Positions 746 to 33,211 of a DNA stretch of 64,000 nt are shown here, one piece after another. Both the position numbers and the translations under genes were made by a program. The notes under the pieces were generated by a model. It had not been told where the DNA came from. It did no database searches and was given only the letters and a program-made list of their open reading frames with translations. The first letter of the stretch is position 1. Each line of letters starts with the position of its first letter. The DNA is from Leptogorgia sarmentosa. Its lineage: Eukaryota. The stretch spans positions 2,728,001-2,792,000 of the forward strand of contig OZ210884.1 in the NCBI GenBank assembly GCA_964658305.1, read 5' to 3'.

Positions 746-3700
746 CTAAAACTTGCAGTCACATGCTAAGACGATTGGGAAAGATATGTTTTTGTCAGGT
801 CTTGGAGGAGGACAATCCATTGGCAGCTGGATTATTTTTACCAAACTTGGGGCACAATGACGTGTCATTTGTATACCGTTTATACCATCATATATGGAAG
901 TACACCATCCCACGCAATGACCTACTGTAATATTCTTGTATGCGATACAATCAAAGCCATCATTATGAACAGGTTTTCGGATTTGCACGTTTTTTTGTTT
1001 CACTAGATGACATTCTTCTTTACTGGTTATTACAATGAAGCGTGTTTTAGGAACTATAAAAAAAAAACAATTTCTCAGTTATCTATCGCAAATGATTATT
1101 GTAATTTACGTGTAGCTAATACTAATACATAATTAATATATACATATATTTTCCTTTATGCATCACAATTAATTTTTTGCATTTTCAACTAATTTTGAGA
1201 TTAATATCATTGTAGTCAATTTCCTGGACGCTGATTGGCTAAAAAGCTTCAACAACTGTGCGAATTAAACATTAGTAATTAATTTCTCAAATCCACACTT
1301 CGAGCCCGCGATACATTATAAAAACAAATAAATAAACGCTTATCAACGCTAAAATTCCTGTTTTTTTCACCAACCAGGCGTGCAATTTTTCATTAATGCT
1401 TCTCGAACCGTGTAATTTCCTATACAAATCCGTAAAAACACCAATAGTAGCACATTTTCGTAATAAGTTTTAAGCGTTCTGTTGGCAAGAGGTCCGGGCG
1501 AGCAAGCTAGTTAAAATGCAAATGTCCACGATTTCTGGCGATTATTTTCGCTTATAGCTATCAACTAATTATGAAAACTTTTTATTACATTTTAGTGCAG
1601 ATTTTCCCGAAATTTTGAGCGTTGAAGGAATTTTACCAATTCTTTATTTTATTCCCATTTTACCTCTAACAAATTAGACTGAAGGCCTTATTTTTATCTT
1701 ATAAACTCTATTTTAGAGTAAAGAAAATAGTACATGCGCGTTTTAATAATTTACGCAATTTAATAAGTTTAAGGGGAAGAGAAATTAGACTAAGCACAGC
1801 TTGCAAATTTGAATTATAAACTTACCACAATTAGGGCAGCAGCCCCAGCCACTTCCGTTGACTGGTCTCGTAAAATTCTATATCAATATTAATATTAAAC
1901 AATTATTGAATGAGGTCCAGTAGGAAAAGAAGAATAATTAGTAAGACCGAGAGTTGTACAGGGTGTATCAAAAAATAGGTAATCGAACTTTGGCATGCCA
2001 TTCAGCCATTGTGCGTTAATTACTGGGTGTACGAACGTGATTTTTGCATGGTCATAAAGATCAAGGTCTTAGCAGTTAAATGACATATTTCTTGTACGAT
2101 ATGGAAGAAAACCAGGCAAATGCGAGCGTGTTGAAAAATCTCGGTGAAAAACGCATTCTTTCACCTCTGTGCCTAATTAAAGCAGTGCATAACAAAAGAA
2201 AAATGCAATTCATCACGAATGTGTCATGGTAACAAAGATTTTATCAGGATTATTAATAATTATGCATAATCAGGTCGATCGTTGAAGGGAAGGTCGTCAT
2301 CTTCGAGTCCCAGAGGGAGTTAATTTTGAATAAGTTTAGCTGCAATTCTCAGAGGTGAAAGAATGCGTTTTTCACCGAGATTTTCCAACACGCTCGCATT
2401 TGCCTGATTTTCTTCCATATCGTACAACAAATATGTCATTCAACTGCTAAGACCTTGATCTTTATGACCATGCAAAAATCACGTTCGTACACCCAGTAAT
2501 TAACGCACAATGGCATGCCAAAGTTGGATTACCTTTTTTTTGAGACATCCTGTATTATTTGCCATAGCCGAAGGCTGAGGCAAACAGCACAAACTGAGGC
2601 CTTAATTATTCAACATATCCTACGAGAACCTAATTTAACGAGATTCCGACATAGTGTTGCATTGTAAACAAAGACTTGTATTTTTCGCCGCTTTTTACCA
2701 TAGCAGCATAAATTAGACGGCGTCATAATGTCATAAAATTTTCAATAATATACGAGATAATTATGTCATATTGTCGTATATGTGTTTTACCGAGCAGATA
2801 TGACGAATTCATCCACTGCTCTTAACCAATCAAAACTCTTGAATTATGTTAAATAAATATTATTTAAATAGACTTACATTTATTATATACATATACTTGC
2901 AACGTTGTAAATTTTGTGCAATGGTGGTCATTACGGGATTTTTACTTGGTTGCAAGGCCATGCAAACCTATTTTTTAATTCATTAAATGTTTTAAGATAA
3001 CAACCAACAGTCATTAATAAACGCATTTCAAGGCTATCAACTGAAACGCAAAGATTCCAGGATGGAGCACCATGCCAATAATTATTATTTGTATAATTAT
3101 ATCGTATATAAGAGCTAGAACCAATCATGTATTTCTTTCTTTTGCAATTTCACTAATAATTATAATTGCAAGAATACCTCGGGACAAGGATCGCACGTGG
3201 TGGTTTTTGTTTCAAGTTGTACGTTCTCACCGGACGATGAGCATTGGTTCGATAGATTTCGACACGTCATTTCAACACAAGGTCCATCCGTCCAGACGCT
3301 ATTAACCTAAATGAAATTTGAAACAGAATTGAGGGCGTCAGAAAACAATGTCCTATGCATGATTCCTGGTTTTAGTATACCGTCTTTTTAGACACTTACT
3401 GTTGCAAACGCAAGCACCAACTCTAAATTTCAGTAATAGCAACCAGCTATTAGTACAAGTAATAGTATGGTTTCGAGTGCAATTTGGAATTAACATGCAC
3501 GAGTGAGTTTTCCAAAGAACTCAAAATAGCACGAGTCCGAAGGACGAGTGCTATTTGAGGTCTTTGGAAAACTCACGAGTGTACATATATTAATTCCAAA
3601 ACGCACGAGAAACCATAGTATTACTTGTTAATAGCTTGCGTAAACATATTCGAGACAATTGTAGTGTTAACCGTTATAGCTACGTCTCAAAGCGAAAGTT

Positions 3701-5746
3701 CACATGCAGAGTTTTCTTGATTAATTTTTTTCACATTTTACAGCGATAACGGTTTCAAGAATTCACCCAAGCACGTAACTTTTGTTTGTCTTGTTTTAGA
3801 TGTAGAAGTTTTTTCCGCAATTACAACAGGATAAAAGCTATATTTTCGACTCGAAAACATGTTTACTTTGTTTAGCGCGGCCGCCATGTTTGTTTTGTTT
3901 TGACGAAATAATTATGTAGCTTGAGCTCTAATTTGATTGGTTCAAAGTGATAACGGAAAATCACACTGTGATAACACGAAATTGCACGGTGATACCACGA
4001 AATTGCACTGTGATTACAAAAAATTGCACTTGCATGTGAATACAAAAAATTACACCGTGATTACAGAAAATGGCACTGTGATTTGGGATTAGCAGCACTG
4101 AAATGAACCAATCACATTCGAGAAATACTTTTATGTATATTATTACATTGATAATTAGTATATGTAATCATTTGAAGTCACACAGTGTCACAGAAGGTTG
4201 CCATTTACATGCAAATTGCCGTCTTGGTATTGACAAACTTTGGTCTTTTTTGAACTACTCGTCATGAATGGTTTACATGTAAACTTACTGGATAGCACGT
4301 TCCATTGTATGAACAGCTGCCTAAGACAAGAAAACATAATAATAACGGCCTATCACATTTTATAAGTAATTTTACCCATGTATGTGGCGTTTAATGTATC
4401 TGTAAAAATGCGCCTTAAAATTGGATAAAAAGGCCAATGCGGGGGATAACGAGATCTTTCATTGTGGGCTGTGCTTGTGCACAGACTTGGACTGATTTCT
4501 GCACAGTCTTGGAAGTTACTTTTAACATCGAAATATTTTTCGAAATTCCGAACTGTAAAGATTAATTGTAAAGCAGCAATGTGAAATTTGTGCGAAAAAC
4601 ATTAAATTACCTCACGTGAAACACAAGAATGCTTATGAATTTAAATAAAATATGCACAAGATGAAGATGAACATTTATGTAATACTTGGAAAGTCATGCC
4701 AGAAGAGAAAAATAGTATAACCTGACGCTGTTATCGTACATTGCACTGCCCAAAGTGTTAATGATATTTTCCGCAAAATATTAGATCTCACTTCGTTTTA
4801 TTTAGCTAAACCATGATCAGGCAGTACATAAGCCGATAAGTATAACACTCAAAGTTTAACTAGTAGTTAAATAGTACAAAATATGGAAGAATTGTGCCGT
4901 CACCGAAGCGACCTGACGCTTTAGTGATGCTTAAAATGCTTCCTTCCATAGCATTATTCCCATGGCCAGAAATGCGCGACAGTCAGCGGCTCGGATAACG
5001 GGTGCGTAATTGACAACAGAGCATGCGCATTACGATGAAGGACTTTCAATGGTAATTTAAATTGCAAATCCCCTGTTTACCAGGCTTTGGACCTAAATTT
5101 TGTGCTAGAAATATGGACACGTTTGGGGCTAAAAGGAACCCCTTTCTGTTGACTTTTAAACATTACAAATGGTTTAAACTGTTAGCGGAACTTTCAAACT
5201 TTAAAATACGATGTTGGCAACATTGAAAACCTGAAGCGAAATCAGGGTAATTTTGCTACCAATTCGGGTATTACTGCATAAATTATGGATTTAATACAGC
5301 TTATATAAAGGCATAGTTGCTTCGATAATTATTTTATGAGGAACCAACTTCCCGAATCCTTTGTATTATATAATTTCGTACAGGTTCACGTTGGGTTGTT
5401 TTAATCATTTATAGATGTTGGCAAATAGGTTTATGCTCACAATATTAATGCTATTTGTGGAAAATGCATTTTACTGGTATAATCTACTAGTAATAAACGC
5501 CATTTTGAATAAATACGTATCAGGCTTTGCGCATGCTAAGTAGCTGACGCCTGACTGTCGTGCATTTCTGGCCATGTGTGCATGCCCATTCAATTCATGG
5601 CCAATTTTGTGTTAATTAAGATAACCCATAACCCATCCACAATTACATTTTTTTAATTAAATACCTTCCACAGCCGAGGTGCAATGAAATGCTATTAAAA
5701 CAAATGCCAAAGTAGACAACTGTCTTGATATCATTGCAAAAACCAT
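746..5746 (-). CDS. Gene A: secreted VWC + C-terminal cystine-knot protein, ~200 aa; coding exons 5746-5665, 4320-4289, 3306-3178, 1877-1826, 1053-746
   Basis: All junctions are GT-AG and in frame (82+32+129+52+308=603 nt). Translation: MVFAMISRQLSTLAFVLIAFHCTSAVEG/SCSYNGTCYP/VNSVWTDGPCVEMTC..TTTCDPCPE/NFTRPVNGSGWGCCPNC/VPK..EECHL..FDC..GHCVGWC..RHCAP..MDC..LACDCKF*. It has a signal peptide, a VWC signature (C-x-YNG..W..PC..CCPxC) and knot motifs CxGxC and CxC. There is a likely non-coding first exon with donor at 6090 and a minus-strand AATAAA near 622. Confidence 0.85.
1959..2552. mobile_element. Tc1/mariner-like MITE with ~220-bp inverted repeats
   Basis: TA|CAGGGTGTATCAAAAAA...TTTTTTGAGACATCCTG|TA; long near-perfect inverted arms; TA target duplication. 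Confidence 0.85.
3456..4146. repeat. Hairpin-terminated element with internal 20-bp tandem repeats; inverted partial copy at ~15250-15520
   Basis: Palindrome 3456-3630 is centred on TCCGAAGGA; repeats of AAATTGCACTGTGATAACAC lie at ~3958-4082. Confidence 0.8.
4961..5576. mobile_element. MITE with terminal inverted repeats in first coding intron of gene A
   Basis: CATGGCCAGAAATGCGCGACAGTCAG...CTGACTGTCGTGCATTTCTGGCCATG; no clear target duplication. Confidence 0.7.
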
Positions 5747-6490
5747 TGTTTTTCTGTGAATAGAACGAAACTTGTTTAGGTACTTGTGGTCATAAACAAA
5801 GAAGTTATAAATGTATTTAACGCTGTGCTATACAATACTAAATAACTCTAAAGATAATTCTAATATTTGTTATCAAAAATTCCAATAACTAATTGACGCG
5901 CAGCTTACGATCTATTATAGTATTATGAAATACTCGTTGACGATGTTTTAATTCTCATAAAATAATAACCCGAATAATTTTTTTCTTTATTTCTGCCAGG
6001 TATTTCTTTATCATTACCCTAATATTGTTACGTAGTACTGCATATGTTTGAAAGCTTCAAGCAACATGTACATGCACGGTGAATACTCACTTTTTCGACG
6101 TTCTTTCTGCTGTATAGCTATTTTGTTCTGGCGGTTGTATAGGATTTCTTTCCACTGACACTGGTTTGTCCGAATCGCTCAATATGTATCAAAATAATCT
6201 TGTGGGCGGAGCCAATTTGACTCCTGACAATGAGTTCCATTCGCTGTAAGAGCCTTTTTAATCATTGTTTTTAATCAGAGACTAATTTAAATATCGTTGG
6301 AAATTAAATAATTAAACTAATTTCCGGTTATTTGGGGGGTAAAATTTAGTGAGTTGCACTTATTATAAGATTTTTAAGACTAGATATGTAGTTTAAATAC
6401 CTTTCGAATTAATAACTTGAATTACTGGTTATTACCGCCATGATGCAGCAAAAATGTTACAGCTCGGTTAATATTTATTAATTCGTTATT

Positions 6491-6655
6491 ACTCATTTCG
6501 AATTAGCTCGCGTGCAAACGCGCATGGAACCTTAAAGACTGATTTTTTTTCAAAATTGTATAAAATATATACATGCACCTTATTCATTCCTTATCTTGAA
6601 GACAAAAACGGTACTCTCTGTATTGGCATTTCTCATTGAATATTTTGAAATTAGG
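6491..6655 (+). repeat. Dispersed repeat; second copy ~20999-21165
   Basis: Both begin CTCATTTCGAATTAGCTCGCGTGCAAACGCGCATGGAACCTT and stay alignable to GAATATTTTGAAATTAGG. Confidence 0.75.
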
Positions 6656-9803: not shown

Positions 9804-11486
9804 AGTGGATGTATCATGCGTGTACACTTGCAGCAACAAAAGTGCTATATGCTAAACAGTAAAATGCAATAATCATTACAATAAGTGTATTTCGGGCAGC
9901 ATAGAAATCGTTTACAATCATCCATACATGTTTCATATTTCTCCATATTTCAACATAAGATTAATGAACAACTACATTGTTCTAGTTGGAAAAAAGGAGG
10001 TTACCGAAATCTAGCGGATAAATTTTCCCATAAATACTCTTTAATATCCTTCTAAGATTACGTCACATCCACTGTTGAAAGTGTTCCTGCATCCGTTAAT
10101 TCTTTAGCGCTTTTGGCGAAGTTATTGTATGTAATTCCTCCTGCCCCTCTCTAGCTCGTAGTTTCGTGAATATTATGGTGCGATTGAATGCGTGTGTATA
10201 ATTGTTTTTGTGAAAGGGATACTAGAATTTTGGTATTGATGCAAATAAAATGCGAAATATGTATCCTTACAATATGCTACTCGTAGCGCTATGGACGATC
10301 CTGATTTCGCGAGACTTCGATTATTATTCTTCCATTCCATACGTCTATCGCCAACCTGTTGTCAGACAGCCGTGCTACACGAAGCTTTCGCAACAGATTT
10401 ACATAATATTTTCGGTTATTCTTCTGGATCTTTCACTGGATCTTTCACGTACCAAGTGCATGTTGTTACACTCGCAGCAAGACGTGGGACTTTCCAAAAA
10501 CGCTCATTGTTTGGGTTTTTGATTGGGAACAGTAAGTCTAGTAATAATCATGAACGTACACTAGGGGCAATTGATCATGGTGTGGCAGGGAGGCAGTGTC
10601 ACAAACAAAATAACACACCTTAATTATAGGTGTGATAGCACTCAATATAATAGTATCATCAAAGAAATGCAGCCACCGAAATTGAAAAATTACATGATTC
10701 ATAAAATTTTTCACATTCTTTGAAGTAAAATATCGCGTGCTACAAATTTTCTTTGATCTGCATGTTGAACAACAACACAACAAAGTCCCTTTGTTACTAG
10801 ATACTGGATAATGAACTACACATTTTGATCATCAATTAAGCCCCCGTATCCATTAAAAGAATCTTCGAGATTATAATCTATTTCTTTGTGCTGGCGACTG
10901 AATAAAAGCACCCCTAACATCTTAATCACTGCAATAATTTCAGCGGCGAAGAACCAAAGGATCAGCAAACGAATCACAGGAATTGAGAGAGCAAGCAGCA
11001 GAAACATCTAAACGTAAGTAATGAAATCAACAAAGTCGTAATGAAGCCGTTTCTGCAAGCATTTATTCTAAATCATTACATGCAGTTGCAATGATTTAGG
11101 TTTGAATTGCCATATCAATATTTTGCTGCAACTATCACTCCACAAACGAATGCTACAAGGCCAGTCGAAAACTGGCCACAGTCGCGTAGTCTGACACTAG
11201 CCGAAAATCATTTAAGCAAAAACCTGTAACTTGAAGCATCTCAACCAAAATGTTCTTTCGCAGTGAGTCATGTTCATACGCCTTTGTCATTTCCTGAAAG
11301 AGTCACCAGTTTTTTGAAACCTCTAAATTTCGTCGCGTTAACAGAACCATATCTCTTATATACTTATATTTTTATATGAACAAAAATGTAACATCATTTC
11401 TAAATATTAATATAAATAAAATAATTTTACTGCCAATGAATCATAAAACTTTCAAGATATTCATTAAACTTTCCACTAATTATAGA

Positions 11487-14400
11487 ATGACATGTCAAAA
11501 TTATTGTTCTTTGTTGGGATTCATTTTCCTCGTTCATCATATCATTTGGAGGGTCGAAGGTATATTATAGTACTGGTTATTTAAAAGTTAAAAACCTCTT
11601 TTATTCAGTGCAAGAAATGCAAATTTCAACATTGCGACAAACAAGTTAAACTCGTGCATTCGACGTCAACCATTTGCCGGACAAAATACTTACCTTCATT
11701 TCTAACTGTAATATATGTCATTTATAATTTGCTTCATAACAAATATTATATTGCACTTATCACTAGAAGTTGTATAATTGAAGACAGTGATGGGTTCATT
11801 GATGGGCTTAAAGTATCTTTTAGCGTCGATCAGAGCGTGTAATGGGGCAGCGAACTCCATCACAAATCATTCACAAAAGCAACAAATGTTAGTTAAAGGA
11901 AAATCAGTAAAGTACGAAAATATCTCAGCTTTAAATCTGCACAGATTTTAGTGCATGCTCTGGTTACATCCCGACTTGATTTTGGAAATGCATTGTTACA
12001 CGGATTATCGAACACTGCTCTTGAGCGAATCCTGAATGTTCAGAATGCAGCAGCACGAATTGTCACATTAACGAGGAAAAGAGATCACATAACACCAGTG
12101 CTATTTAATCTATACATTGGCTGCCGATCAAGGAAAGGATTCAATAATTATAAGATACTATGTGAATCTATAGGATCTTTTAAATCAGAATTGAAAACAC
12201 ATTTGTTCCGAATTGCATAGAAGGATTTTATTTAGAGTAATTTTAACTATTTTTAGAACGATATTTATACTTATTAGTCTATTTTACAAACTTTAAATTA
12301 ATCAATTGTTGTAAAAATATCATAAGTTGTAAATTGTAATTTAAAAAGCGCATCTGGATATTTATGGAAGATGCGCTATATAAGAAACTCACTATTATTA
12401 TTATTATTATTATTAATTTTTGATGTTTCGATCTTTATACTTTTCAAAAAAATTAAATAAATGCATGAAGATCGAATGTTTAGTAAAAAAACTCACGTAG
12501 ATTTAGAAATTTATAATTAAACAATCAGTGTCAAGGAATATGCAAGAACGCATATTTAATATGTTTCGCACTGCCGTCACTGCCGTCACTGCCGTCACTG
12601 CCGTCACTGCCGTCAAATTCTTACCCTTCGTATCTAATTCAACCTTTAAATTTGTCAATAACTTGATAATGCAGCATAAATTATATAAGAGGCGCTTCAT
12701 GAATGGCTTCGTGGAAGTAAGAAAGTCATTTCTAGGATAGACTAGGATATATCACAAATGAATGAACGAGTGACTTGATCATGCGGAGAATGTAGAGAAA
12801 AATTTCATGATATTTCAAGAATCCATGTAGTTAGTACTCGACTACATTCCTGTATATTTAAAGTGCATTAATTAGTGCTGGGTCAGATATGATTGTCGTA
12901 TATCAAATTCCGTAAATAATATCAGATATGAAATAATCTTTTTTCTAAGTGGTAGAAAGCTCTATAAAGGTAGAAAGTTCTACTTTATACAATGAATAGT
13001 AATTATTTTAAGGACTTCAGGAATTTTTACAATATTAAATAGTTGTACTCGTGTAAGCTCGTAGTTTAACTATACGGCTTTGTTATATAGTTGGTGTCAA
13101 AGTTCAATTTTCCTGTTTGCTGATTGGACAAAACCGTATCACGTGCCGGTCCACAAAACGTCATGTTCGCCAACCGGTCAAAAATCAAAAAGTTATTGAC
13201 CGGGCAACAATTAAATGGGCACAATGCGCATGCGCGTCAACCGTGAAGTCCAAAGTTCATTCAATCGTTTTTACGATGTTTTAATGGCATAAGGCGTCCC
13301 ATTCAATGTCTGTTTTTTGGTTTCAAGGTTCACTCCAGTATTAAACCGGTGAATTCATTCATATTTTGACACTAAACTATATAACAAAACACTTATTTAC
13401 TGAAACCTCGAGAAACATTGTGTTTTGTGGCCCCTCGACCGCCATTGTTGCCCTCGGCTTCGCCTCGGACAACAACGGCGGTCTCGGGGCCACAAAACAC
13501 AATGTTTCCCTCGGTCTCAGTAAATAAGTGATAAATAGAGAGACTTGTTCTTACACTCCACGTATTGTTTCTTTAATAGGAAACCCTACTCCAACAACAG
13601 GAAATACGTCATCGACAGCAGCATCGCCGACACAATCAACATCTACGACAACAGAAGTTAGGTTCACGAATAAAAGGGAAACCAATCCATTCAAGTTCAC
13701 ATTCGATCCATCATTCTTCAAAGTCATAATGCTGCTAAAAATCTGTTTTTCTATTTTGTGTACCGGGTGGCGCAGAAAAAAGTTTACGCGTTTGATTTAG
13801 TAAAATGAAGAAAGCATAAAGGCTACATCGTTCGAATAAATGTAACCGTAGTCATGGAAGCCTAACTTAAATTTTGAGCTACAACATGTTTATTTACGTA
13901 CAAAAATGACTGAATTATGATCAAATGAAATTTGGAACGAGATTTGGTAAATGTAAAAATAGTGCTAAAAATGCTCTTTCATAAATTTTAGAATTTCTCA
14001 AACATAGTCGCTTGTATGAATTCAGTTTCAGTAGAAACGTTGTTACGAAGCTTTCTCTAAATATTTATTTGTTTTATTATTATTACAAAGCAACATAATT
14101 TCGAAAAAGGTAACTTTTGTCCCTTGGGAAAATGTCCTTTGGGAAATTGAATTTAACTCGCCCTTGCGAAGAAGAATTTCGAACGAATTTAAGTTTCTGC
14201 TTGTAACCAATCAACAACGAGTTTGGGTTTGCTTACAATATGCTACCGTAAATAATGCTGAAGAGGTTAATATACGACGTTGGCCAATTTAATGGGGTAA
14301 CGTTCCTTGTCCGAGTAAACCTAGGGTGATAAAAACTTTTAGCTAATTTTGGGACATTTTAAAAATGCAGTTGCAAATTGAAATGCTAATATCTTGAGTA

Positions 14401-17400
14401 ATACTTTTAATTACGAAAGTACATGTATTATACAAAAAAATTTAAGTAAGGCTTTTATGAATTCAGCTACATTTATTTGAACGATTTATTTGAGCGCTTT
14501 CTTCACTTTACTAAATCCAACGCGTAAACTTTTTTCTGCGCCACCCGGTATAATTTGGTGAACGAAATGCCAAAAGGATGCTCTTTACCATATAAACGAA
14601 TAATTGATAGCGGAAGCCATCTAATTTCCTCTCATGAGAGTGCGAGACGTGAAGTGTGATACCAGATTTCAAGCATTTAAAATATAATTATTATTATACT
14701 CAAAATGCAAATTGACATTTTCTATCATTTTTTTCAGCAAGCTGTTTTTACAATGGATTCTGCTACCCAGTAAGTACATACACACACATGAAGCATGACT
14801 AATATCCTCAATCAGATACAGATCGTGAATCTCCTTCACAACCTGTAACGAACTGTTACGGATTTATAAGAACACTTCACAATGGCAGAACGTGCAGTTG
14901 CTTTAGTTCTAGCAGTTCCTACGACTCGCGAAGAAGCTCATGCACAATTTGACAAACTATTTCGACCCGTAGCTATAAATAAGTGGGGCTTACGATCCAT
15001 GACAGGTCGTGAGTAATTTTATGAACCCATAAATTCCACAGAGATTAGGTATGAGCGCAAAATCGAACTTACTGACTTACTGACTGAAGTTTTTTCGAAC
15101 AACAATAATATTCAATACGATTTCTGGCAATATTTCGATTTCATTCTTCCTGGCTCACAATGTAGTTATATTTAGACCTTGCAGCTTTTCGGTGTAAAAT
15201 CTAAATACTTCTTTCAGCAGGATACATTATTACAAAATTATAACCGTGTTAATAATATGCATAAAAGTATTACTCGACTGTGATTGATTCATTTCAGTGC
15301 AGTTAATCCCAAATCACAGTGCAGTTTTGTGTTATCACAGTGCAATTTCGTATTATCACAGTGCAATATTGTGTTATCACGGTGCAATTTTCTCCTAGCA
15401 CTTTGAACCACGCTAAAAAAGTAAAAATTGTCTCCGAGTCGAAAACATAGCTTTTATCGTGAGTTGAAAATATAGCTTTAATCGTGAGTTTTCCAAAAAT
15501 CTCAAATAGCACTCGTCCTTGTTTCCTTTTACAACATGAAGTTTTAATACCAATGTTAATGTTTAAATCGATGTTTCCTTTTTTAAATCCAAAGTTACGC
15601 ATTCGATAACATAATGGCAATAGCCAGAATCGCATTGGATATAGTATACCAAAATTTGGACGATGATAATTTGGAAAGTATTTGGTGTAAACGTTCGCCT
15701 AACACATCAAACACACAGCTTGTAAGCAGTAGAATTCAGATCCCAAAGGACGCTGCCTGTAGAACTTTGGCACATCTTTCATCGAACTCAAGCTGAATAC
15801 GATCAGCGGACTTCACCTTCTGGGTATTTTAAAGCGCTAGACCGTACTAACTGGAATCACTGCTGACCGTTAACAGCGGGCACCGGGCTTACGATTTCTG
15901 GCCATGCTATACTAACACAAGTGGGAAATTATATTCTACAATATAAAATAAAATTCTGATTTTTTTACAACAGGATTTGAAGTGTTGATTTAGACCATGT
16001 TTCAGAGGGTTCTGTCAGTTCTTTTGTACAATGAACATGTGCAAAAGGACTTTCCATCTTATCAGAGGGTTCTGACAAGCACGATTTTTGTTCTACCACT
16101 ACAAAATGAATGAACTCAAAGCAATTATGTAAATTGAAACATCTTCAGATAAAGTAAAGTTATTTCGCGGATATATCTAAAGATATCGTGAATCGGAGGA
16201 CAATATATTTTGTGAAACGTCGTGATACACGTAGCACGTGTATACACATACACGTAGCTCTGGAATTTGATTAATAAAATTATGACAGTTTCCTTTCCAA
16301 ATAGCTAATACTACCTATATCGAGGAAATTGTTAGTAACGAATACCCATGAAATCATGACATATTAATTTCGTACAAGCAAATTGTTGACAAGGGTGCCG
16401 GAGAAACGGGGCAGGGAGGGCAACTGCCCCCTCTGCCCTAACATTGCGGGTGCCAGCGGTAGCAATTGACTATCCTTTATTCCCACAAAAAAGAATGATT
16501 AAATGTCAAAAATTTATAAAAGCATGAAGAGGCGTTTGTTTTTTCAGAAATGAAATGACATATGGAAGACTCGAGACTTGAATATTTTTCGGAGGGGGTT
16601 CCACAGATTCTCATTAGGTGCCTTTTCGTCCCGGCCCCCGCCGCTCTTCAGTCCCTGCGGCACCCATGATTGTTGATGAAATATAGAAATCTTTCAAATG
16701 TTTTAATATTTTCAAAAAAATCATGTATGAGAATATTGTTGAATAAGCTGCCAGCAACATACTGTTTTGTTTTGTTTTGTTTTAACAAAAACTATAAATT
16801 TGGAAATTTTTATAAAACCATAGCTACTGTTCATCTTTTGTAGTAAATTAAAAAGTCAGCAACCTTTGTTTCTCTGTCATGAAAAAAATTTCAATATTAT
16901 CCTTCAGGTAGATAGCGTCTGGAATGATGGACCTTTCAAAGAAATCACTTGTCAAAATATATCTAATCAATGCTCCTCTGGTGGTGAGAGCCTACAACTA
17001 GAAACAAGAACAATAACGCGAGAACCTTGTCCAGAGGTACTGTAGTATGATTGCTACAATAAATTCGTACATCATCGCAGACCCCCCACAACGTTAACTT
17101 GTTACTAATGAATAAATTTTACATCACCAAATAGTTCATAATTATGATCATGGTTTCAAACTAAATGTATAAAAAAGAAGGTTATCCGAATTTAAATTGC
17201 CATTGTGCGTACATATTACTAAAAGGAGCGGATAACAAGGAAAATATAATTAATCAGAATGTGTCATGTTAACAAAGAGATTACGACGAGTGTAATAATT
17301 TCACCCGAATTATATTAATAATAATTCTTACTATCTATTTTGTTAACTAAATTAAAATCCCATGGGGACTGAATTCCAATATGTTTAGTCTTAATAAACT

Positions 17401-18873
17401 TTTTCACTTTCAGTAGAAAATAATTATTAGCCCAACGGGAAGGACGATAACAATCGGAGGATAACAAATGTCTGATTGTTTGGGCGCTTAAAAAGGAAGA
17501 GTGACAGCGCACCCACCCCACCCCCGCCACCTCATAGACAAATTTCGCCATTTTTAACACAAAAATATTGGCGTAAATTGTTCACGTCATCGACATCTTA
17601 ACAAGTGAGGATATGGAAAATGGTGTCTCAGTTACGAATTTATAACAAAACTTTACACTTTTTTACTAAATATAGCTACTGCGAATACATACATGCAGCA
17701 ACCCCTCCTCGCCTTACTAACGTGGCAAGACTACACTCAACTCAATGCAACTATATTCTATGGCAACGTAAATGTAACATTGTTATAATAACATGGGAAT
17801 CAGGGACGGCGCTACAACGTTCATTTGGGGGGTACATAATTTATTCATAATTTGGCTTTCTGCCGACTGGTTGATTCTGTTGAAATCAGTTGTTCATTTA
17901 TTAATTTCAAAAGAATTCAGTCGGCAGGACGCCAAGAGATGAATATGCACCCCCCCCCCCCCCCCAAATTAAAGTTATAGCGCCAGTCTTGAAGGTAATT
18001 AATATTTTTCGGTATATTTTCGAAGATGAAGAAATACTTAAATTTGATGTAACGCATACGCCTAAAACGTTTTCTGAAACGTTTTACCTAAATACAAAGG
18101 TGTGATCACCTTTTCTTTAATAAGACCGTTTACAGGATAATACTGATTGGCAAATATGCACAAATTTAGCTAATCATAGAGAAATATTGCATAATTATGG
18201 ATAAACTACAATACTGGTTTTTATTATGCCATTATAAATTATTTAGCTACGCCTTATTAAATTTCAGAATTGTACAAGTTCAACAAACGCAAGTGGCTTT
18301 TACCATCCATGTTGTCGTGAATGCGGTAAGGTCAACAACGAATTATAGAAGGCAGTACGCGTCTCTTGTGGTCGTTGATCGTGCCCATGAGACTCTGCCC
18401 ATGCATGAGCAGGTATCCCGAATTGTACCACATGCGTTTCGTACATGATCACTCTTTACAGAACGCATTTCCAGTTTTGTACGCATACATGTGTTGACTG
18501 GTGATAAATCGCACCAAAGGCATGTGGGATATATAAATGGAGAGGTCTATATTAAAAACAATTGTGGCCACTGATTGGCCTTGAAATAAATTCTATAAAA
18601 TTCTTGCAATTTCCAGCCGCAAAGGAAGGAATTATCCTTGAAGATATAGATTGTACCTCCCATCCCGAAACTCTACGCGTCGTGGCAGTCCTGAATGGGG
18701 TTATTTGCACCTCAAAAGACTTAATCGCTATAAATAAATGTAGGGGAGATCACATTCCGTGGAAGTGTGTTCCCATTAAATCAAAAATTATCAAAGTAGC
18801 AATGATCTGTCCTGGTCAACCTGACGATACCATGGACTACGAAATCTACATAAAGTGCGGCTGGATTGACTGA
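11487..18873 (+). CDS. Gene B: paralog of A, secreted VWC + degenerate (6-Cys) cystine-knot protein; exons 11487-11559, [13580-13657, donor mutated], 14738-14769, 16908-17036, 18268-18325, 18617-18873; 182 aa without the bracketed exon
   Basis: The 32-nt and 129-nt exon sizes and the intron phases match gene A. Translation: MTCQNYCSLLGFIFLVHHIIWRVE/ASCFYNGFCYP/VDSVWNDGPFKEITCQNISNQCSSGGESLQLETRTITREPCPE/NCTSSTNASGFYHPCCREC/AAKEG..IDC..VIC..NKCRGDHIPWKCVP..MICP..IKCGWID*. Non-coding exon donor at 11014; AATAAA at 18961. Confidence 0.82.
11951..12415 (+). mobile_element. 5'-truncated LINE (L2/CR1 group) 3' end in intron of gene B
   Basis: VHALVTSRLDFGNALLHGL..VQNAAARIVT..RKRDHITPVL is a typical post-RT C-terminus. 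It is frameshifted at the LHWLP motif and ends in a (TAT)n tail at ~12393-12415. Confidence 0.85.
12568..12614. repeat. 9-bp tandem repeat (CACTGCCGT)x5
   Basis: Seen directly. Confidence 0.9.
13082..13532. repeat. Hairpin-terminated element
   Basis: Inverted GTTATATAGTTGGTGTCAAA / TTTGACACTAAACTATATAAC, followed by a ~140-bp palindrome at 13390-13530 centred on CGGCTTCGCCTCG. Confidence 0.8.
13763..14548. mobile_element. Tc1/mariner-like MITE
   Basis: TA|CCGGGTGGCGCAGAAAAAAGTTTACGCG...CGCGTAAACTTTTTTCTGCGCCACCCGG|TA. Confidence 0.9.
16390..16668. mobile_element. hAT-like MITE
   Basis: Perfect 8-bp TSD ATTGTTGA; termini CAAGGGTGCCG...CGGCACCCATG. Confidence 0.85.
17800..17991. mobile_element. 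hAT-like MITE (degenerate)
   Basis: CAGGGACGGCGCTA...TAGCGCCAGTCTTG with subterminal G and C runs; TSD matches at 6/8. Confidence 0.6.
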
Positions 18874-25694: not shown

Positions 25695-26019
25695 GGTTTA
25701 ACGCACGAGAAGAAACTCTCTGGCAACCAGAAAAACAAAATAAACACTAGCTCTCGACAACCGAGAGAAAAATGTATCGAATCCACCCCCGAAGTTTCAC
25801 AAGTAGAGGATGTTTACAATAATTGAAATGTTTTTTTCAAGTAAATTATCACATATTACAAATAGTGTCTTTGTATGCAAAAAGTTGAAACAACAAAATC
25901 TTTCAGTTTCTAGCTGCTATGAAAAGGAACTATACACAGCTTGACTACCAATTATGCCCGCGCGTCAATTATTAAATAACCATCTGCAAGAACCTTTTAG
26001 TTCTTTCAATTCGCCACTG

Positions 26020-26026
26020 TATAAAA
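26020..26026 (+). promoter_or_regulatory. TATA box of gene C
   Basis: TATAAAA lies ~110 bp upstream of the GTAAGT donor at 26133. The homologous position in gene B (~10900) reads GAATAAAAGCA. Confidence 0.6.
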
Positions 26027-27157
26027 GCAGCACATCACAACCACTACAATACATTCAACTCAAAAGACTAAAGAGATCAGTAAAAGAAGCGAAGAAATCG
26101 TCATTTGAAAGCAGGAGAAACCGACCATCCATGTAAGTAATAAATAAATTGTCTATATAGCACGCACGTATAAGCTATAGTAAATGTACAAAAACAGATC
26201 TATAACCATACATAAAATATTTATAGTGAACATATTAATAGACATAATATTTTTATAACTGGCTTCTATCTCTATTTTGCGCAACTACTGATTGTAGCTA
26301 TTACTGCTAGATCTGTAAATATTTGTTTAAACTTTTCAAAGTTCGAACAGTCAAATTGATATTTCTATAAAAATATACAGTATATCAGACAAGAAACGAT
26401 CTTCTACAGAAAGTTTATCAAAAATAAGGCGCTAAACCTGCATTTTCCTGTTCAAAATTTAAATATAGTTGTTATAGTTACGATGATTTCTTTCATTTGT
26501 TAACGAAAAAAACTTTTTACTTGATCCGACCTAGAGTTCATAATCTAGTTCAACTTACCAACTGATTGCAAAACTGCTATCCTGGAGGGACCCGATCCTT
26601 GTAATCGAAAATTATAGAAAATATGGCAAATCACAAATGCCATGTAGCTATGGCCCAGTTCAAAACGAATATACGCACCCAAAAGGAATAATTTCCCGCA
26701 CATGCCTAGAAAATACCGCATGAAACAACGTAGCCTAAGAATTACAAAATATCTATATTCCACCTAAGTTAACGTTAATATATAAAAGTTTATCGAAATA
26801 CAATTTTTAACTTTGAATTGCCTTAAAAGTTAATTGATTTAAATTTGTTTTCAAAAGAACTTAGTAGCAAGAACATGAATATATAAATATTTAAATTTAA
26901 GAAAATTTCACGTCACAGTGAGACTCGGGGAATTACCAAAACTTTCAAATTACCTTAATAATTTTACGCAGTCCCATGTTTACCTATATAAACCTGTTAT
27001 GAGAATAATAGCTAAGGCAGAACAATAGTACTTGAAATAGGCTATCCTAACTTAACCAGGCCCACATAAATTAGAAATGGTAGCAGAACGACAGTTGGCC
27101 TTAATGCATTAACGATTTATGATTACAATATTTTTAATAGTATTTTTTCCGTATAGA

Positions 27158-30100
27158 ATGACTTCTAAACAATTGGTATCTTTGTTGGCATTCTTATTTC
27201 TTGCTCCACAAATCATTTGGAAGGTTGAAGGTAGTTATTCACAAATTTATATTATCGCATTAAAATTAACAAAAAAGCATATTCTAGCTATGTAGCAAAA
27301 CGGAGGAAGAACACGAGAGATGTAAATATTCATAGCTACCAACCGATAAATGCTTTTTCAGTGTTTTTTTTATACGTGTAACATTCGTATAATTAGAAAA
27401 TACAATAAAAAATACAGTCACGTATCTTTTGCAAAAAAATAAACTAGCTACGTTTAAAATATTAGAGTATAAATTCAATGCGGAAATTTAGGTACAGCTG
27501 TTAAACACCCGTTGTCGATCGCTTCTCGTACCTACTTGGGTCAAGTTTAATTCACTTGTATTTTTGCCTGCCAAGATTTTCTTATTTGGGTTGTTTCAGT
27601 TTTGTTAGAAAACCTAATGACCGTCTGTAGGCGTATACTTTATGTAAGCCTTCGTTCTTATTTCCAACGTCTTTCTCTTACTTCGGTTGCCAGCAGATAT
27701 TCATTGCGTCAACAGAACACAGTTGCAAAAAGTGTTCAACCTTCCTCCGTGTAAAATTTAGAGTTTTCAAATTTTCCTCAAAATGAATACGAATTCTGAA
27801 TTTCAAATTGCAAAATATATGAATTACGTCATTCAAAATTGGCTTCTTATTCCCATTTTCCACTGATTTAGCACTATTCTGCTGAAACCTGCCTCAATAT
27901 CACCTCACATATTGGAAACCTTCCTCACGGGTGGTACCCGCAAACCCACAGCTTTTTTGCAACTCTGCAACAGAAACTTTTAAATTGCAATATTTTTTAA
28001 ACAAGGTGCACGTGTAAAGTTATTCAAGTAATTATTCAATTATTCAAAAAATAGTCACAAGTAGTTAATTATATTCTTGGATTAATCGTGGATTGTTTAC
28101 TTAATAGGCTGTCCTACTACACCGTCGGGAAATACGACATCAACAGCGCCACCACAACCGCGTACAACAACTGACGAAGGTAAGCGCGATTGGATAAAAA
28201 AAACCAAGTGAAAACTAAGAAAAAAACTTTCTGGTACCATCTCCTTAACGATTTAAGGATTCCACAGTGAAACTCTCTGTAATAGTGAGATTCAGATCGT
28301 TCTTTGGTTGCAAGTGCTAGCAATGAATTTACCAGAGACGCTAAACCCTTTAGAGAAATATACGTTTAACAAAGTCACTACATTCAACACTATTATAGTC
28401 AATTATTCAATTAAAAAACTGGAAACTCATTATGCTATTACGCCATATATGCATTAGTAGTCGATATTTGGTAGCTATATAATATTAGTTTGAAGGTTAA
28501 AGTTTACAATATCATTATACCAGTTTTCAAAAGACCGAGAATAAGTACATATTACGAGCAATAATTCGTAAAAACAGAAGTAAAATTTTCCATAAATACT
28601 AATTGACAAGTATACATTTTTATGATATCACCTCTTTGTGCAAATTTCGTGAAAATTCTATACATTTCCAGTTCTTAAATTATCTATAAATTGGTCGAGG
28701 ACTCAGAATTGTGACTTAAAGCTCTAATTACACACCTGCATGTGTTATTCTAATTCTAACAGTTCTGAATCAATTAAAGAATGATTGTTAAACTATTATA
28801 TTTTCCAATGATTAATATAATATTATATTCATACGATTGTTTTCTAATTATTTTTTAGGATGTCGCTAAATTCGTCATGTATTATGAATTGACTCATTTG
28901 CTGTCCCATATAAAGATGTATTGTTCCATGCATTAATTCGCTGATTTTATTCTTAATAGGACCCACTACTTCACCAACAGGAAATCAAACATTAACCGCA
29001 AAACCAACGACAACACCATCGCATAAAACAACTGAAGGTAGGTAACCAAATAGGAACAAGGTCGATTGAACAACGCGTTTAAAAACTTTACAATACAACT
29101 GTCCTTTGCCTGCAAGTACTACTAAAGTTTGAAATGTTGCAAATTCTCCATCCCTAACTTAGCTATATGGGCTGCATAAAAAAAACTTACACAACTTTTG
29201 TATCTTAGTTAATGGCCCTTACAGATTTATTGCTGACATTTTCATAATGGCTTATGAAAATGTATGGCTTATAAATTCAAATTAAGCCTTTAGCTTCTTT
29301 CCAAATTATTGTAAAAATAAGACTTCATACGAATCGGTAAAAAAATGGCATTCAACGCCGCATTTTTCGAAAGGCGAAAGAGGATGGAATGAAAAAAATA
29401 GACGGTAGAAAAGTTAATTTTTTAACTAGCTTCTGTCCGGCCTTCCTGGCTAGAGCTTGACAATTGCATAATCACATATCCAACACAATTTTGTGGACCT
29501 GTGTCATTTCCAATTTATTTGCAACTTATTTAATATCGAATTATTCACCTCGATCCTTTGTAACAACGATGCTTCTATACTTTGTAAAAAAGGTTTTATA
29601 GACACATTGTAAGGTAGATAGAAATATATTCTGATATTTGTCTAATATCAACAGGCTCCAATATCGAGGATGAATGGGAGATTTCTTTCGTTGAACAAGG
29701 TACGTGCTTGATCCAAAGCGAATTTATTATTATCATTATATAGAATGGTTATTATAATCATGTTAAAATCGATTGGAAATTCCAGGAATTTACAATTCTT
29801 CCAAAGGAAGTAAAGCGCACACATTTTCATGCAGCCAATTAGATTCAGATAAGGAACCAAAATAGCCAATCAGCTTTTAGCGAGGATTGGACAAAAACGC
29901 AGGCATGAAAATAAATAATAATGTTTATAAACATGTTTTTGTTTATACACTTGATTATTTCAAACAAAATTTGGTGACAGGAAACAAAAACGGGAAATAC
30001 TGAATTAACCATCCAGCATTTCTAATTACTAATTCACAAAATTCTGCTGCTCTCTATTACGATTTGACAAAGTTCATGTGGCAATTACTGTCATACTACA

Positions 30101-33100
30101 ATTGCAGCTTTCAAAAGCAAGCAGGTGGATGTGGGTCTTTTGCAAACCAAAATGACTTCGGTTTTAAAATTGTTTATGTTTCCAAAATGAATATAATAAA
30201 ATGGTAATTACGCTTCGTTTCGTGCTATTTTGGTCGAAAATCACACTTTTGATCAGAAACTTCATTCTCGCTTCGAAGACGCACATTTTTTTCCCACTCG
30301 GCTTTGCATGAATTGAGACCATTGAACTATATAAAACTGGAAGGCTACTTCCGGTCGAAAACTTGAAGCCAAAATATGCAAAATTGGCCCTAGTCTTCTC
30401 ACGCAATGTAAACACGGCCAAAACAAATCATTCTGTGTTTTTCGGAAAAAACCTGGAAAAACCTTGCAAAAAATAACATTAAAAGATGGGAATCATTCAT
30501 GTTTAAATAAATTTGACGAAGATTTGGTCCTCTTAATAATGGCCAGTTTTTGTACCAGATTTTGTATGGTAACGTCTGATAAAACTAGCGCTTTTTGTAG
30601 AAAAAACCGATCAGCAGTGATAAGCATCGTGTTGAGGTTTGCTATAAAGCTGGGTTAAGCCGTGATTTTTGGTAAATTTTTTATATTTTTCCAACATCGT
30701 TTACCCACAGGCCATTTCCATTGATAGACAGTTTTCGAATCATTATGTCAAGCATTTGAGATCCGTTTTATTCCAGGCGCAATCGTTTTCCGCGTGTTTA
30801 CCTTACAGAAATTCATTTGATCGGCATAAAATTGAAATGTTCTGTATTCATAGCACAAGAAATGGCTTTGAAACAGTAAAAAAACAGCAAATTCATTTCT
30901 CTATCGCATCGCAAGTTCCTACGTTCTCTTTCGACAACATGTTGTTCACTTGTTCGCTACTTTCAACCACGCGAGAATGTCACGCAGCTGAACTCGCGTG
31001 AAATTACCTCCAGACACGCGTGCCTCCACGCAAAATTTTTAATTTATTTCCCGTTAATATTAAGGTAGCCTTCCATATATAGTTCAATGATTGAGACCAA
31101 ATTGCACTGCACTCAGTATATACCGACATATCTGTCCGTTTCAGCATGATCGTACTACATGCTGAATTGGGTGTCTTTTAGTGCACTGGGATTTAGGAAT
31201 TGACCATTATACAATGAAGACTTGTTGACAAATGTTGAAATTTTTCTTCCAGGAGCAGAAAATATTACATGTACACCAACACAATCAATGTCAGGAAAAG
31301 CTTCACCTTCACCAAAATCACCACCAGCTATACCAAAACCATTTAAAAAACCAAAAGGTACGAGCTCGAATGAAAAATAGGAACATTAGGCATGCGTAAT
31401 AATCACTTAGCTACTGACTAAGATTGAAAAATATCAAACTGAGGTCTTGCTGTATTAACCGTGCGATATGGAGGTTACTACAGCTAGACCGATGTTTGAT
31501 GTTTTCCCGTACAGAACGAACAGTCGAAGTCAGTAGTTTGTTATATTTTATTATATGGCTTTACGAAGCTCTCTACTGATTGGTTGACAAGCAGTCCGTA
31601 AAAACCCAATTCCGGACCGTGGTCCGTATTTTCTGTATCTGGACCGGTGTCCCGGATGTCGTTTATCTGGCGGGAAAATTCGCTTCGCAAACAGAAAAGA
31701 TTTTTTGCTTTTTAATTTTCCAATTTAAGATAAAAATTTCGGACAACCAAATTGTTTTAGATTGAGCATGTATGTCTACCGTATACTGTTACCTAGTGAA
31801 ACTGATGATAGCCGATTAAATTCGGGCGAAAAGCATATGCTAAAATACTCAATTCAGCCATATAATAAACAGTTTATTGACCTCGCTTGTTCGGTCTGTA
31901 CTGTGAAATATCAGACCTCAGTTTTTTGCATTGACCTCGCTCCTTCGTCGCTCGGTCTATACTAAAAAACCTTGGTCTGATATTTCACAGTACAGACCTC
32001 ACGCTCGGTCAATAACCCTTTAATATGGCATATGTGCGTTTTGAAATGAGCTTAGGCGATATACAGGAATAAACCAAATATTATCATACTGGGGCCGGTT
32101 GTATAAATCTCTTAACTACCCGTTTCGCAATTAAAATACGGGTTTCTGATTGGTCAATTTTTGTACTTAACTATATATAGTTAACTTCAACTTTATTTTT
32201 ATACAACACTGAACTTCGTTAAACTGACAAAAAACAGTTTCGCATCCTTCAATTTCAAACTCTAGTTATTAGAACTCGTTCTCACAACGCCTCTCGTCGT
32301 TCACTTTAGCACTTTCGTATTTCAATAAACAAAATTTCATTGAATTTCAATGTTTTTTGTGATTGTTTTCTTGATAGCGGAATAAAAATTGGGTATTGTC
32401 CGTGGGCAATACGGGAAAATCCTGCCATATATTACGGCATTCGCAAAAAAAAAGCATCTTGATTCCTGCATTTCCTTTGAAAATCGTCAGTCTAAATCAG
32501 AATAGATCAAAACTGGAGTTCATTATGCAGCAAAAAAATCTGTTTTGAAAACATGCCAAGGAAGCTCCAAAAACTTAAATACTCGTCTACATAATAGCCT
32601 GTATACTGATCTAAACTGCTGGGCTGCTTTTTTATGATTTGTAAATTGATTTTATCGGAAATTTAAAGAAACGTGGCTCATTTGAAAAAAATGGGCATGC
32701 AAAGAATAATTAAATTTCAGTTGAAATTCAGTGGAATTTCCAGCTTCTAAAATACACTGCAAAAAATATTGTGCAAGAAATAGTGAAATAGTGACACTTT
32801 GCCATAACAAAGACATTGATAAATCATAATCGCACATGTTAACTGGGATTACACAAAGTAAAGAAAGTATGCCTTCGTTACGTGCGTATCTACTATGCAG
32901 CGTTCTCGACAAAAAAACATCAATTATAATTGTATATTGGAATACTAATTTTTATCAACCTCTTACATTTTCCAGGTGCCGGTATAGATTGCACTTGCCA
33001 TCCAGTACTTGGGGTTTTTCAAATAATCCGTCGAAATCGATTGATATGCACGTCAAAGTTTGTCTATGCAAACAATGAATGTAAACCTAATCCACCCTGT

Positions 33101-33211
33101 GTTCCTATTGTCATAAAGCGGATCAATGTTCCAATGATATGTCTGAAACCACTTCCAAATGTAGTTGTAAAAGGCGTAGTGGTCATCAAGTGTGGTATAA
33201 TAAATGGATAA
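27158..33211 (+). CDS. Gene C: paralog of A/B, secreted Thr/Pro-rich mucin-like protein with degenerate cystine knot, 187 aa; exons 27158-27230, 28108-28179, 28960-29037, 31253-31357, 32976-33211
   Basis: All introns are phase 1 GT-AG and the total is 564 nt. The signal exon MTSKQLVSLLAFLFLAPQIIWKVEG is the same size (73 nt) as in B. Three T/P/S-rich exons follow. The last exon GIDCTC..LICTSK..NECKPNPPCVP..MICL..IKCGIING aligns with the last exon of B. TATA at 26020, non-coding exon donor at 26133, AATAAA near 33275. Confidence 0.82.
31553..32022 (+). repeat. Dispersed hairpin-terminated element, same family as 23899-24360
   Basis: Direct alignment by eye; the ORF-track peptides at 24107 and 31762 are near-identical. 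Confidence 0.85.

What the first reader, a model, noticed from the sequence alone, without database searches (positions are those of the whole stretch)
746..33211. Hidden three-gene cluster of small secreted VWC/cystine-knot proteins: a stand-alone vWF/mucin C-terminal module diversifying in situ
Seen: three spliced genes share homologous signal exons ending VEG in phase 1. A and B share the 32-nt and 129-nt VWC exons, and all three share a homologous last exon. The architectures form a series: A = SP-VWC-CK; B = SP-(PTS)-VWC-broken CK; C = SP-PTSx3-broken CK. Known: VWC directly followed by CK is the C-terminal end of von Willebrand factor and gel-forming mucins, and both domains also occur in BMP-binding proteins (chordin VWC, DAN family, CCN). 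Inference: a ~200-aa protein made only of VWC+CK is not a family I recognise. It could be a lineage-specific family of BMP/Wnt modulators, hormone-like ligands or mucus components.
Basis: partly seen in the sequence, partly recalled or inferred. Interest (0 to 1): 0.88.

Follow-up and report, generated by a model that had tools for sequence, protein, structure and literature searches.

The report
VWC-fused sclerostin-like secreted protein cluster
Three related animal genes sit side by side: one encodes a small, likely secreted protein that joins a von Willebrand C-like domain to a sclerostin-type cystine knot and likely dampens Wnt or BMP signals, one is transcribed but likely disabled by a splice-site mutation, and one carries a mucin-like stalk in place of that domain and is predicted to have lost one bond of the knot.

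Summary
The three genes are real paralogues, and spliced contigs from three runs of one study cover all three.

Gene A (200 aa) is signal peptide, VWC-like domain and a cystine knot that passes Pfam DAN (27.3 bits, cut-off 22). The knot has the eight-cysteine sclerostin pattern, without the extra cysteines that mucin and vWF knots use to dimerise. Its only NxI motif lies in loop 2, where sclerostin binds LRP6.

Gene B has a GT-to-TT donor mutation. Its transcripts retain that intron and stop at 97 aa, before the VWC, so it is likely a recent transcribed pseudogene.

The 'broken' knot of B and C is best read as paired loss of one disulfide plus loop 2.

No homologue was found, but the searches were insensitive single-exon queries. 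The best reading is a lineage-specific, sclerostin-like Wnt/BMP modulator family in birth-and-death turnover. Function is inferred, and origin (mucin tail or DAN gene with a captured VWC) is unresolved. Verdict: new variant of a known kind.

The parts
746..1053 (-). Gene A last exon: 8-Cys cystine knot (DAN type), stop at 746-748; transcribed 3' UTR to about 606
   Evidence: Pfam DAN 27.3 bits, cut-off 22; contig pieces end at the 1053 acceptor in X4, X5, X6
872..880 (-). Only NxI motif of protein A (N157-G-I159), in loop 2, eight residues after the fourth knot cysteine
   Evidence: motif role in sclerostin from PMC7585440
1826..1877 (-). Gene A 52-nt exon, end of the VWC-like domain (CC-x2-C)
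3178..3306 (-). Gene A 129-nt exon, core of the VWC-like domain
4289..4320 (-). Gene A 32-nt exon, start of the VWC-like domain
4961..5576 (.). 616-nt element with 26-nt terminal inverted repeats in intron 1 of A (MITE-like); an X4 contig begins inside it at 5506 and runs unspliced into the 32-nt exon
5665..5752 (-). Gene A signal-peptide exon (ATG at 5746), ends V-E-G, phase 1
   Evidence: hydrophobic core; covered in X5 and X6 by depth-bin arithmetic
6091..6179 (-). Candidate non-coding first exon of A (strong donor at 6090); inferred, alternative is a contiguous 5' UTR to about 5841
   Evidence: 177 nt unexplained in X6 contig = 88 + 89
10920..11013 (+). Gene B non-coding first exon (5' end approximate), homologous to the first exon of C
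   Evidence: joint 11013-13580 in 3 of 3 RNA-like runs; loose ends before 11486 match it in X4, X5
11486..11559 (+). Gene B signal-peptide exon (ATG 11487), in-frame stop just upstream; included in some transcripts and skipped in others
   Evidence: (joint 11559-13580 in 3 of 3 runs)
13580..13657 (+). Gene B PTS exon; donor +1 is T where the paralogous C exon has G
13658..14737 (+). Retained intron of B: stop codon at 13798-13800; inverted repeat 13761-13875 / 14437-14550 carrying A-to-G differences
   Evidence: (X6 contig continuous 13580-14769)
14738..14769 (+). Gene B 32-nt exon
   Evidence: joint 14769-16908 in 3 of 3 runs
16908..17036 (+). Gene B 129-nt VWC-like exon; two cysteines of A are replaced (F, R)
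18268..18325 (+). Gene B 58-nt exon (CC-x2-C)
   Evidence: joints on both sides in 3 of 3 runs
18617..18873 (+). Gene B last exon: six-cysteine knot derivative, open frame
26020..26132 (+). Gene C TATA-like box (26020-26027) and non-coding first exon ending 26132
   Evidence: joint 26132-27157 in X4 and X6
27157..27230 (+). Gene C signal-peptide exon (ATG 27158)
   Evidence: joints in X4 and X6
28108..28179 (+). Gene C PTS exon 1 (72 nt, phase 1-1)
28960..29037 (+). Gene C PTS exon 2 (78 nt, phase 1-1), paralogue of the B PTS exon
29655..29699 (+).
   Evidence: joints on both sides in X5 only
31253..31357 (+). Gene C Pro/Ser/Lys-rich exon (105 nt, phase 1-1)
   Evidence: joint 29699-31253 in X5
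32976..33211 (+). Gene C last exon: knot derivative lacking loop 2 and one cysteine pair
   Evidence: splice into it not tested

Best explanation
Gene A encodes a 200-residue protein, predicted to be secreted, in which a VWC-like domain is joined to a sclerostin-type cystine knot, and it likely acts as an extracellular brake on Wnt and possibly BMP signalling; B and C are diverged duplicates, B likely disabled and C rebuilt. Shown: the exons, their homology, the DAN-type knot with eight cysteines, one NxI motif in loop 2, spliced transcripts of B and C, intron retention in B. Inferred steps: (1) the signal peptide is cleaved near residue 28, giving about 19 kDa with six N-glycan sequons; (2) with an even 18 cysteines and none of the extra mucin/vWF dimer cysteines, A folds as a monomer or non-covalent dimer, not a mucin polymer; (3) the loop-2 NxI docks in the first propeller of LRP5/6 as in sclerostin and DKK1, while the basic knot surface (pI 8.8) binds heparan sulfate; (4) the acidic VWC-like arm may bind BMP or matrix; (5) after duplication the B/C ancestor lost loop 2 with knot cysteines 4 and 8, a bonded pair, and so lost the NxI arm; C also lacks the phase 1-1 VWC cassette and has phase 1-1 PTS exons, giving a three-disulfide two-finger head on an O-glycosylated stalk; (6) B was recently silenced by a donor mutation.
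For: Pfam DAN above its cut-off and Cys_knot below. Cysteine spacing in the A knot 20-10-3-15-13-16-1 with C-x-G-x-C and C-x-C; PMC4079206 states that SOSD proteins lack the 6th and 7th conserved cysteines and that anemone and coral have SOSD orthologues. NxI of sclerostin (N117, I119) in loop 2 binds LRP6 E1 and sclerostin may act as a monomer (PMC7585440); A has one NxI in 200 residues, in loop 2, chance 0.088 anywhere in the loop and 0.007 at that offset (post hoc; the sclerostin offset uses C109, which is recalled). VWC domains bind BMP in chordin, BMPER and CCN2. dN/dS of A against B over the VWC exons is 0.19/0.74 = 0.26, and B against C last exons have saturated dS with dN 0.50, so both domains were long under protein constraint. 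B and C keep the spacings C2-x10-C3 and C5-x13-C6; hhalign B/C against A 82% probability over 35 columns; the C model has two hairpins and 7 of its top 10 Foldseek rows are cystine-knot entries with sclerostin first (none significant). B retention and stop.
Against: No binding or activity was tested. A lacks the basic residue that follows NxI in sclerostin and DKK1, and its loop 2 is short (15 residues). phmmer of the A knot hit no sclerostin or DAN chain in the PDB; its best hit was lutropin beta at E 0.35, and it found no true relative among 1.84 billion representatives, so it is not a plain sclerostin orthologue. VWC directly before a knot is the mucin/vWF arrangement, and the C-x4-C spacing matches vWF C4, which lacks the 3-5 bond, not the chordin BMP-binding type, so BMP binding is doubtful. 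The VWC has no Pfam or PDB hit from single exons. MAFFT chose another register for the N-half of the knot; the paired-loss register scores 23 against -18 for B but -3 against -1 for C, and two random losses among eight cysteines form a pair 1 time in 7. The C model is low confidence (pLDDT 50.5). One sampled run (X4) holds a form of A that starts in intron 1 and has 3 of 4 coding differences non-synonymous, which fits relaxed constraint. RNA evidence is contigs from one study.
Confidence: 0.42

Rival explanations
1. The cluster is a set of mini-mucins: the freed C-terminal VWC-CK module of a gel-forming mucin or vWF-like gene, secreted into mucus or matrix, where it binds or caps mucin chains; the NxI is chance.
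For: VWC followed by a knot ends gel-forming mucins; the VWC spacing matches vWF C4; B and C carry PTS exons (49% P, T, S over C residues 25-125); gel-forming mucins exist in early-branching animals; NxI in the loop has a chance of 0.088.
Against: A lacks the extra cysteines used for covalent dimers in vWF and mucin knots (pattern; their role, their positions recalled); no VWD domain; the PTS part is at most about 100 residues and absent from A; Pfam prefers DAN.
Confidence: 0.23
2. A (alone or paired with C) is a hormone-like ligand of the glycoprotein-hormone/bursicon kind that activates an LGR receptor.
For: The best PDB sequence hit is lutropin beta, with a similar finger-2 end (E 0.35); cnidarians and sponges have cystine-knot hormones and LGRs, and such genes can lie close together.
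Against: The hit is not significant; Burs/GPH peptides have a short N-terminus and keep the 6th and 7th cysteines, whereas A has a 70-residue domain in front and eight cysteines.
Confidence: 0.12
3. The genes are fast-turnover secreted defence, recognition or venom-type proteins that reuse the stable disulfide scaffold, with no link to Wnt or BMP.
For: Tandem and inverted duplication, a likely recent pseudogene, domain loss, no detectable homologues, non-synonymous differences between samples in A (3 of 4) and C (2 of 3).
Against: dN/dS between paralogues is well below 1; the octocoral venom paper that I checked mentions a cystine knot once, for an unrelated protein.
Confidence: 0.15
4. The whole cluster is decaying: transcribed, but no longer making functional protein.
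For: B retains an intron; one X4 contig of A starts inside an intronic element and its longest frame has no signal peptide.
Against: A and C frames and splice sites are intact; an X6 contig has the exact length of a full A mRNA; C is spliced through six exons.
Confidence: 0.08

Closest known systems
Sclerostin / SOSD (SOSTDC1, Wise) branch of the DAN (CAN) family
   Same: Pfam DAN domain; eight-cysteine knot without the 6th and 7th conserved cysteines; NxI in loop 2; basic knot; signal peptide; about 200 residues.
   Different: A has a folded ten-cysteine VWC-like domain before the knot, a shorter loop 2, no basic residue after NxI, no C-terminal tail, and no significant sequence hit to sclerostin.
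C-terminal module of von Willebrand factor and gel-forming mucins (last VWC plus CTCK; MUC19/BSM tail)
   Same: VWC directly followed by a knot; VWC with C-x4-C and no 3-5 bond as in vWF C4; PTS segments in front in B and C.
   Different: No VWD, C8 or TIL domains; stand-alone gene with its own signal exon; knot lacks the inter-chain cysteines; one extra cysteine pair in the VWC.
CCN proteins
   Same: Small secreted proteins with both VWC and a C-terminal knot that touch BMP and LRP6/Wnt signalling.
   Different: CCN has IGFBP and TSP1 domains as well, with TSP1 between VWC and knot; A has neither.
Cystine-knot hormones (GPA2/GPB5, bursicon, cnidarian Burs/GPH, sponge CKH)
   Same: Same knot superfamily; weak likeness to lutropin beta in finger 2.
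   Different: Single-domain with short N-terminus and more cysteines; A is two-domain.
Chordate IL-17 (precedent for an incomplete knot, for B and C)
   Same: A knot fold that survives paired loss of one disulfide (PMC4517768).
   Different: No sequence relation shown; B and C also delete loop 2 and keep the finger-tip bond.

Membership tests
DAN/CAN family | DAN domain (PF03045) above the curated cut-off | tested here: met
   A last exon 27.3 bits against 22; B and C last exons: no Pfam family
DAN/CAN family | Eight-membered ring motifs C-x-G-x-C and C-x-C | tested here: met
   A C145/C149 and C196/C198; not met in B and C
DAN/CAN family | Small single-domain protein (PMC8377005) | tested here: not met
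   A has a 70-residue, ten-cysteine domain before the knot
DAN/CAN family | Antagonises BMP or Wnt | not testable with these tools
   needs binding and reporter assays
Sclerostin/SOSD | Knot lacking the 6th and 7th conserved cysteines | tested here: met
   single cysteine at the start of finger 2, eight in all (definition)
Sclerostin/SOSD | NxI motif in loop 2 followed by a basic residue | tested here: inconclusive
   NxI present at 157-159, basic residue absent
Sclerostin/SOSD | Orthology by sequence or tree | tested here: inconclusive
   no sclerostin hit in PDB or representative searches; no family sequences were available for a tree
Gel-forming mucin / vWF | VWD-C8-TIL assemblies | tested here: not met
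   signal exon adjoins the VWC or PTS exons; upstream in-frame stops in A and B
Gel-forming mucin / vWF | VWC directly before a C-terminal knot | tested here: inconclusive
   cysteine spacing fits vWF C4 but no profile hit from single exons
Gel-forming mucin / vWF | Extra knot cysteines for covalent dimers | tested here: not met
   A knot has only the eight paired cysteines; positions of the vWF inter-chain cysteines are recalled
CCN | IGFBP-VWC-TSP1-CK order | tested here: not met
   no room for IGFBP or TSP1 in the 200-aa model
Glycoprotein hormone / bursicon | Short N-terminus and full CKH cysteine set | tested here: not met
   Pfam Cys_knot 20.4 bits, below cut-off 24
Cystine-knot fold (B/C last exon) | Two-finger fold with three knotted disulfides | tested here: inconclusive
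   two hairpins in a pLDDT 50.5 model; weak knot matches; one ring pair absent by sequence

The most novel reading that the evidence does not exclude
A is a two-armed Wnt/BMP antagonist of a new architecture, a sclerostin-type knot with an LRP5/6-binding NxI loop fused to a vWF-type C domain, and so a link between mucin/vWF tails and DAN-family antagonists; C shows the same fold shedding a ring disulfide and loop 2 to become a knot-less three-disulfide head on a mucin stalk with a new function.
Probability: 0.25. Interest if true: 0.76.

Novelty: new variant of a known kind. Interest (0 to 1): 0.56.

Why it matters
Single-domain knot hormones and antagonists and multi-domain mucin/vWF knots are usually studied apart; the main survey of early-branching animals left the multi-domain ones out (PMC4079206). 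A two-domain protein with a mucin-like layout and a sclerostin-like knot would show how one can turn into the other. It also gives a sharp test: one motif (N157, I159) predicts LRP5/6 binding. The locus further catches three stages of gene turnover side by side: intact, recently silenced, and rebuilt by symmetric exon exchange with loss of a disulfide pair.

Tried and rejected
Homologue searches found nothing usable: A knot exon, longer proteins, 0 of 24 candidates; near length, no candidate; VWC exon alignment, 0 of 6; 1.84 billion representatives, 1 hit, a bacterial repeat protein rejected as spurious; metagenome contigs, 0 of 142 and 0 of 418 pattern matches. These used single exons, and even known DAN proteins did not score, so the blank is weak evidence of novelty; how well these collections cover animals is not known to me. 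No whole genome is held, so paralogues elsewhere are untested; none further in the window. The protein Atlas gave no answer. NCBIfam and Rfam: nothing relevant. Earlier findings: none in three look-ups. No listed run is on record as RNA. AlphaFold2 of the A knot alone failed (pLDDT 33.5) and was not searched. Fold searches of the C model gave no significant match (best E 2.0; best Z 2.7, 8 chains at Z 2 or more). The A-knot with C-domain complex gave no verdict (score 0.00). The bin holding the A signal exon had no cover in X4; I draw nothing from it. No joint leaving the B PTS exon or using the in-frame cryptic GT donors at 13744, 13759 or 13789 was listed, but contigs cannot show absence. 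The alternative donor one base earlier gives a frameshift. Editing of the B stop codon cannot rescue B: a second stop follows at once (sequence at 13801-13803). No VWC-exon remnant in C introns and no PTS remnant in A intron 1. 'Tail of a longer mucin' rejected. The organism was not identified; spliceosomal introns and the neighbouring genes show an animal, and 'cnidarian' is only my impression. Two vWF structure papers were not held (one search returned an unrelated paper). The alignment supplement of PMC4079206 is an unreadable .doc and may bear on the cysteine comparison.


Full report
Observation. The window holds three spliced genes built from homologous exons. A lies on the minus strand (ATG 5746, stop 746), B and C on the plus strand (ATG 11487 and 27158). 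All modelled introns have GT-AG ends and matching phases, except the donor of the PTS exon of B. Signal exons, the 32-nt and 129-nt exons, and the last exons are homologous beyond shuffle controls. No fourth paralogue lies in the window, and no genome is held to look further.

Transcripts. Six runs of two studies hold the locus, none on record as RNA. I laid 4 of the 6. X1 shows no exon joints among the rows listed, while X4, X5 and X6 (one study) show GT..AG joints at the predicted sites, so I treat them as RNA. All are contigs, which show presence only.

Gene A. Its joints were not among the 15 rows shown of 101. The contig pieces give them indirectly. X6 has an 845-nt contig with 606-1053 at one end and 390 further letters. 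The three VWC exons take 213, leaving 177, and the depth in the bin with the signal exon corresponds to 178 covered bases. An X4 contig jumps from 4287 to 1053 over 179 letters, the size of the 129-nt and 52-nt exons less shared letters. In-frame stops precede the ATG under both possible 5' structures, so A is not the tail of a mucin.

Gene B. The joints 11559-13580, 14769-16908, 17036-18268 and 18325-18617 are in 3 of 3 runs, and so is a form that skips the signal exon. The donor after the PTS exon has T at +1 where the paralogous exon of C has G. An X6 contig runs unbroken from 13580 to 14769, and X4 and X5 contigs run through the intron into the 32-nt exon. This form stops after 97 residues, and no ATG precedes the VWC in frame. 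The VWC and knot exons of B are still open, with dN/dS 0.26 against A, so the lesion is likely recent. A rare spliced form cannot be excluded.

Gene C. Joints link a non-coding first exon, the signal exon and two PTS exons (X4, X6), then a 45-nt exon and the 105-nt exon (X5). The product is 202 residues if the last intron is spliced as modelled, which was not tested. No VWC remnant was found in its introns. The VWC cassette of A and B and every stalk exon of C begin and end in phase 1, so they can be lost or gained without a frameshift.

The knot of A. The last exon passes Pfam DAN (27.3 bits, cut-off 22) and falls short of Cys_knot. It has eight cysteines spaced 20-10-3-15-13-16-1. Roch and Sherwood (PMC4079206; I read parts 2 and 3 of 7 and found passages) describe SOSD proteins as lacking the 6th and 7th conserved cysteines, which is the pattern here. 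The pairing 1-5, 2-6, 3-7, 4-8 is recalled from sclerostin. Kim et al. [quoted passage not shown] A has one NxI, at 157-159 in loop 2, eight residues after the fourth cysteine. By my recall of C109 this is the sclerostin offset. Shuffles give 0.088 for the loop and 0.007 for the offset. I noticed the motif after the fact, and the basic residue is missing, so this is a lead.

The VWC-like domain. Residues 29-98 hold ten cysteines ending in CC-x2-C. The C-x4-C spacing matches vWF C4, whose bonds are 1-4, 2-8, 6-9, 7-c and b-10, with no 3-5 bond (bioRxiv 2022.08.20.504523, passages). VWC before a terminal knot is the mucin layout (PMC4948705, PMC3056801, passages). Single exons gave no Pfam or PDB hit, and the spliced protein could not be submitted, so the assignment rests on pattern.

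The B/C domain. B and C are 47% identical there and share six cysteines. They keep two spacings of A exactly (x10, x13) and match its second finger by hhalign (82%, 35 columns). In the register that keeps those spacings they lack cysteines 4 and 8 and the loop between 4 and 5. That register is favoured for B and undecided for C, and MAFFT chose another. A two-sequence model of C (pLDDT 50.5) has two hairpins. Its fold search is not significant, but 7 of the top 10 rows are cystine-knot entries, sclerostin first; gremlin-1, PDGF-B and sclerostin are among 8 weak VIA matches. Chordate IL-17 is a precedent for losing one knot bond (PMC4517768, passages).

Mechanism. I favour a secreted, sclerostin-like modulator: the loop-2 NxI binds LRP5/6 and damps Wnt signalling, with the VWC arm as a second contact to BMP or matrix (0.42). 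VWC and knot domains have these roles in chordin, BMPER and CCN proteins (PMC8377005, PMC8487547, passages). Rivals are a mini-mucin (0.23), a defence or recognition protein (0.15), an LGR hormone (0.12) and decay (0.08). Origin from a mucin tail or from a DAN gene that captured a VWC cassette is open; the VWC type points to the first, the knot to the second.

Novelty. No homologue was found, but these were weak single-exon searches. Ten literature searches (listings only, except the papers named) showed no SP-VWC-CK-only family. The anemone mucin survey PMC9080433 (part 2 of 5 and one passage) lists only transmembrane types in what I read; PMC11226491 and PMC11896702 (passages) add nothing on it. 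The library lacks most subscription papers. Both domains and their adjacency are known, so this is a new variant of a known kind.

Noticed in passing
window 13761-13875 and 14437-14550: In the retained intron of B, all 8 differences of the X6 contig are A-to-G on the sense strand and all lie in the arms of an inverted repeat; likely A-to-I editing, unproven without DNA of the same individual.
   Followed up: partly
window 4961-5576: MITE-like element in intron 1 of A; an X4 contig starts inside it (5506) and that sample differs from the window at 12 places in 500-1053. Possibly a null or alternative allele.
   Followed up: partly
window about 36500-45000, minus strand: Spliced gene with a VWA domain and a ZP domain (Pfam VWA, ZP-N, Zona_pellucida), a likely matrix protein.
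   Followed up: partly
window about 52600-55600, plus strand: Voltage-gated potassium channel gene (BTB_2 plus Ion_trans).
   Followed up: partly
window from about 57580, plus strand: Alpha-galactosidase gene (Melibiase_2), with a further exon near 61730-61980.
   Followed up: partly
window 8442-9806: Recent 680-nt tandem duplication (97% identical) between the divergently transcribed A and B.
   Followed up: no
window 45390-45764, minus strand: Open frame that looks like the end of a LINE reverse-transcriptase element (likeness recalled, not tested).
   Followed up: no
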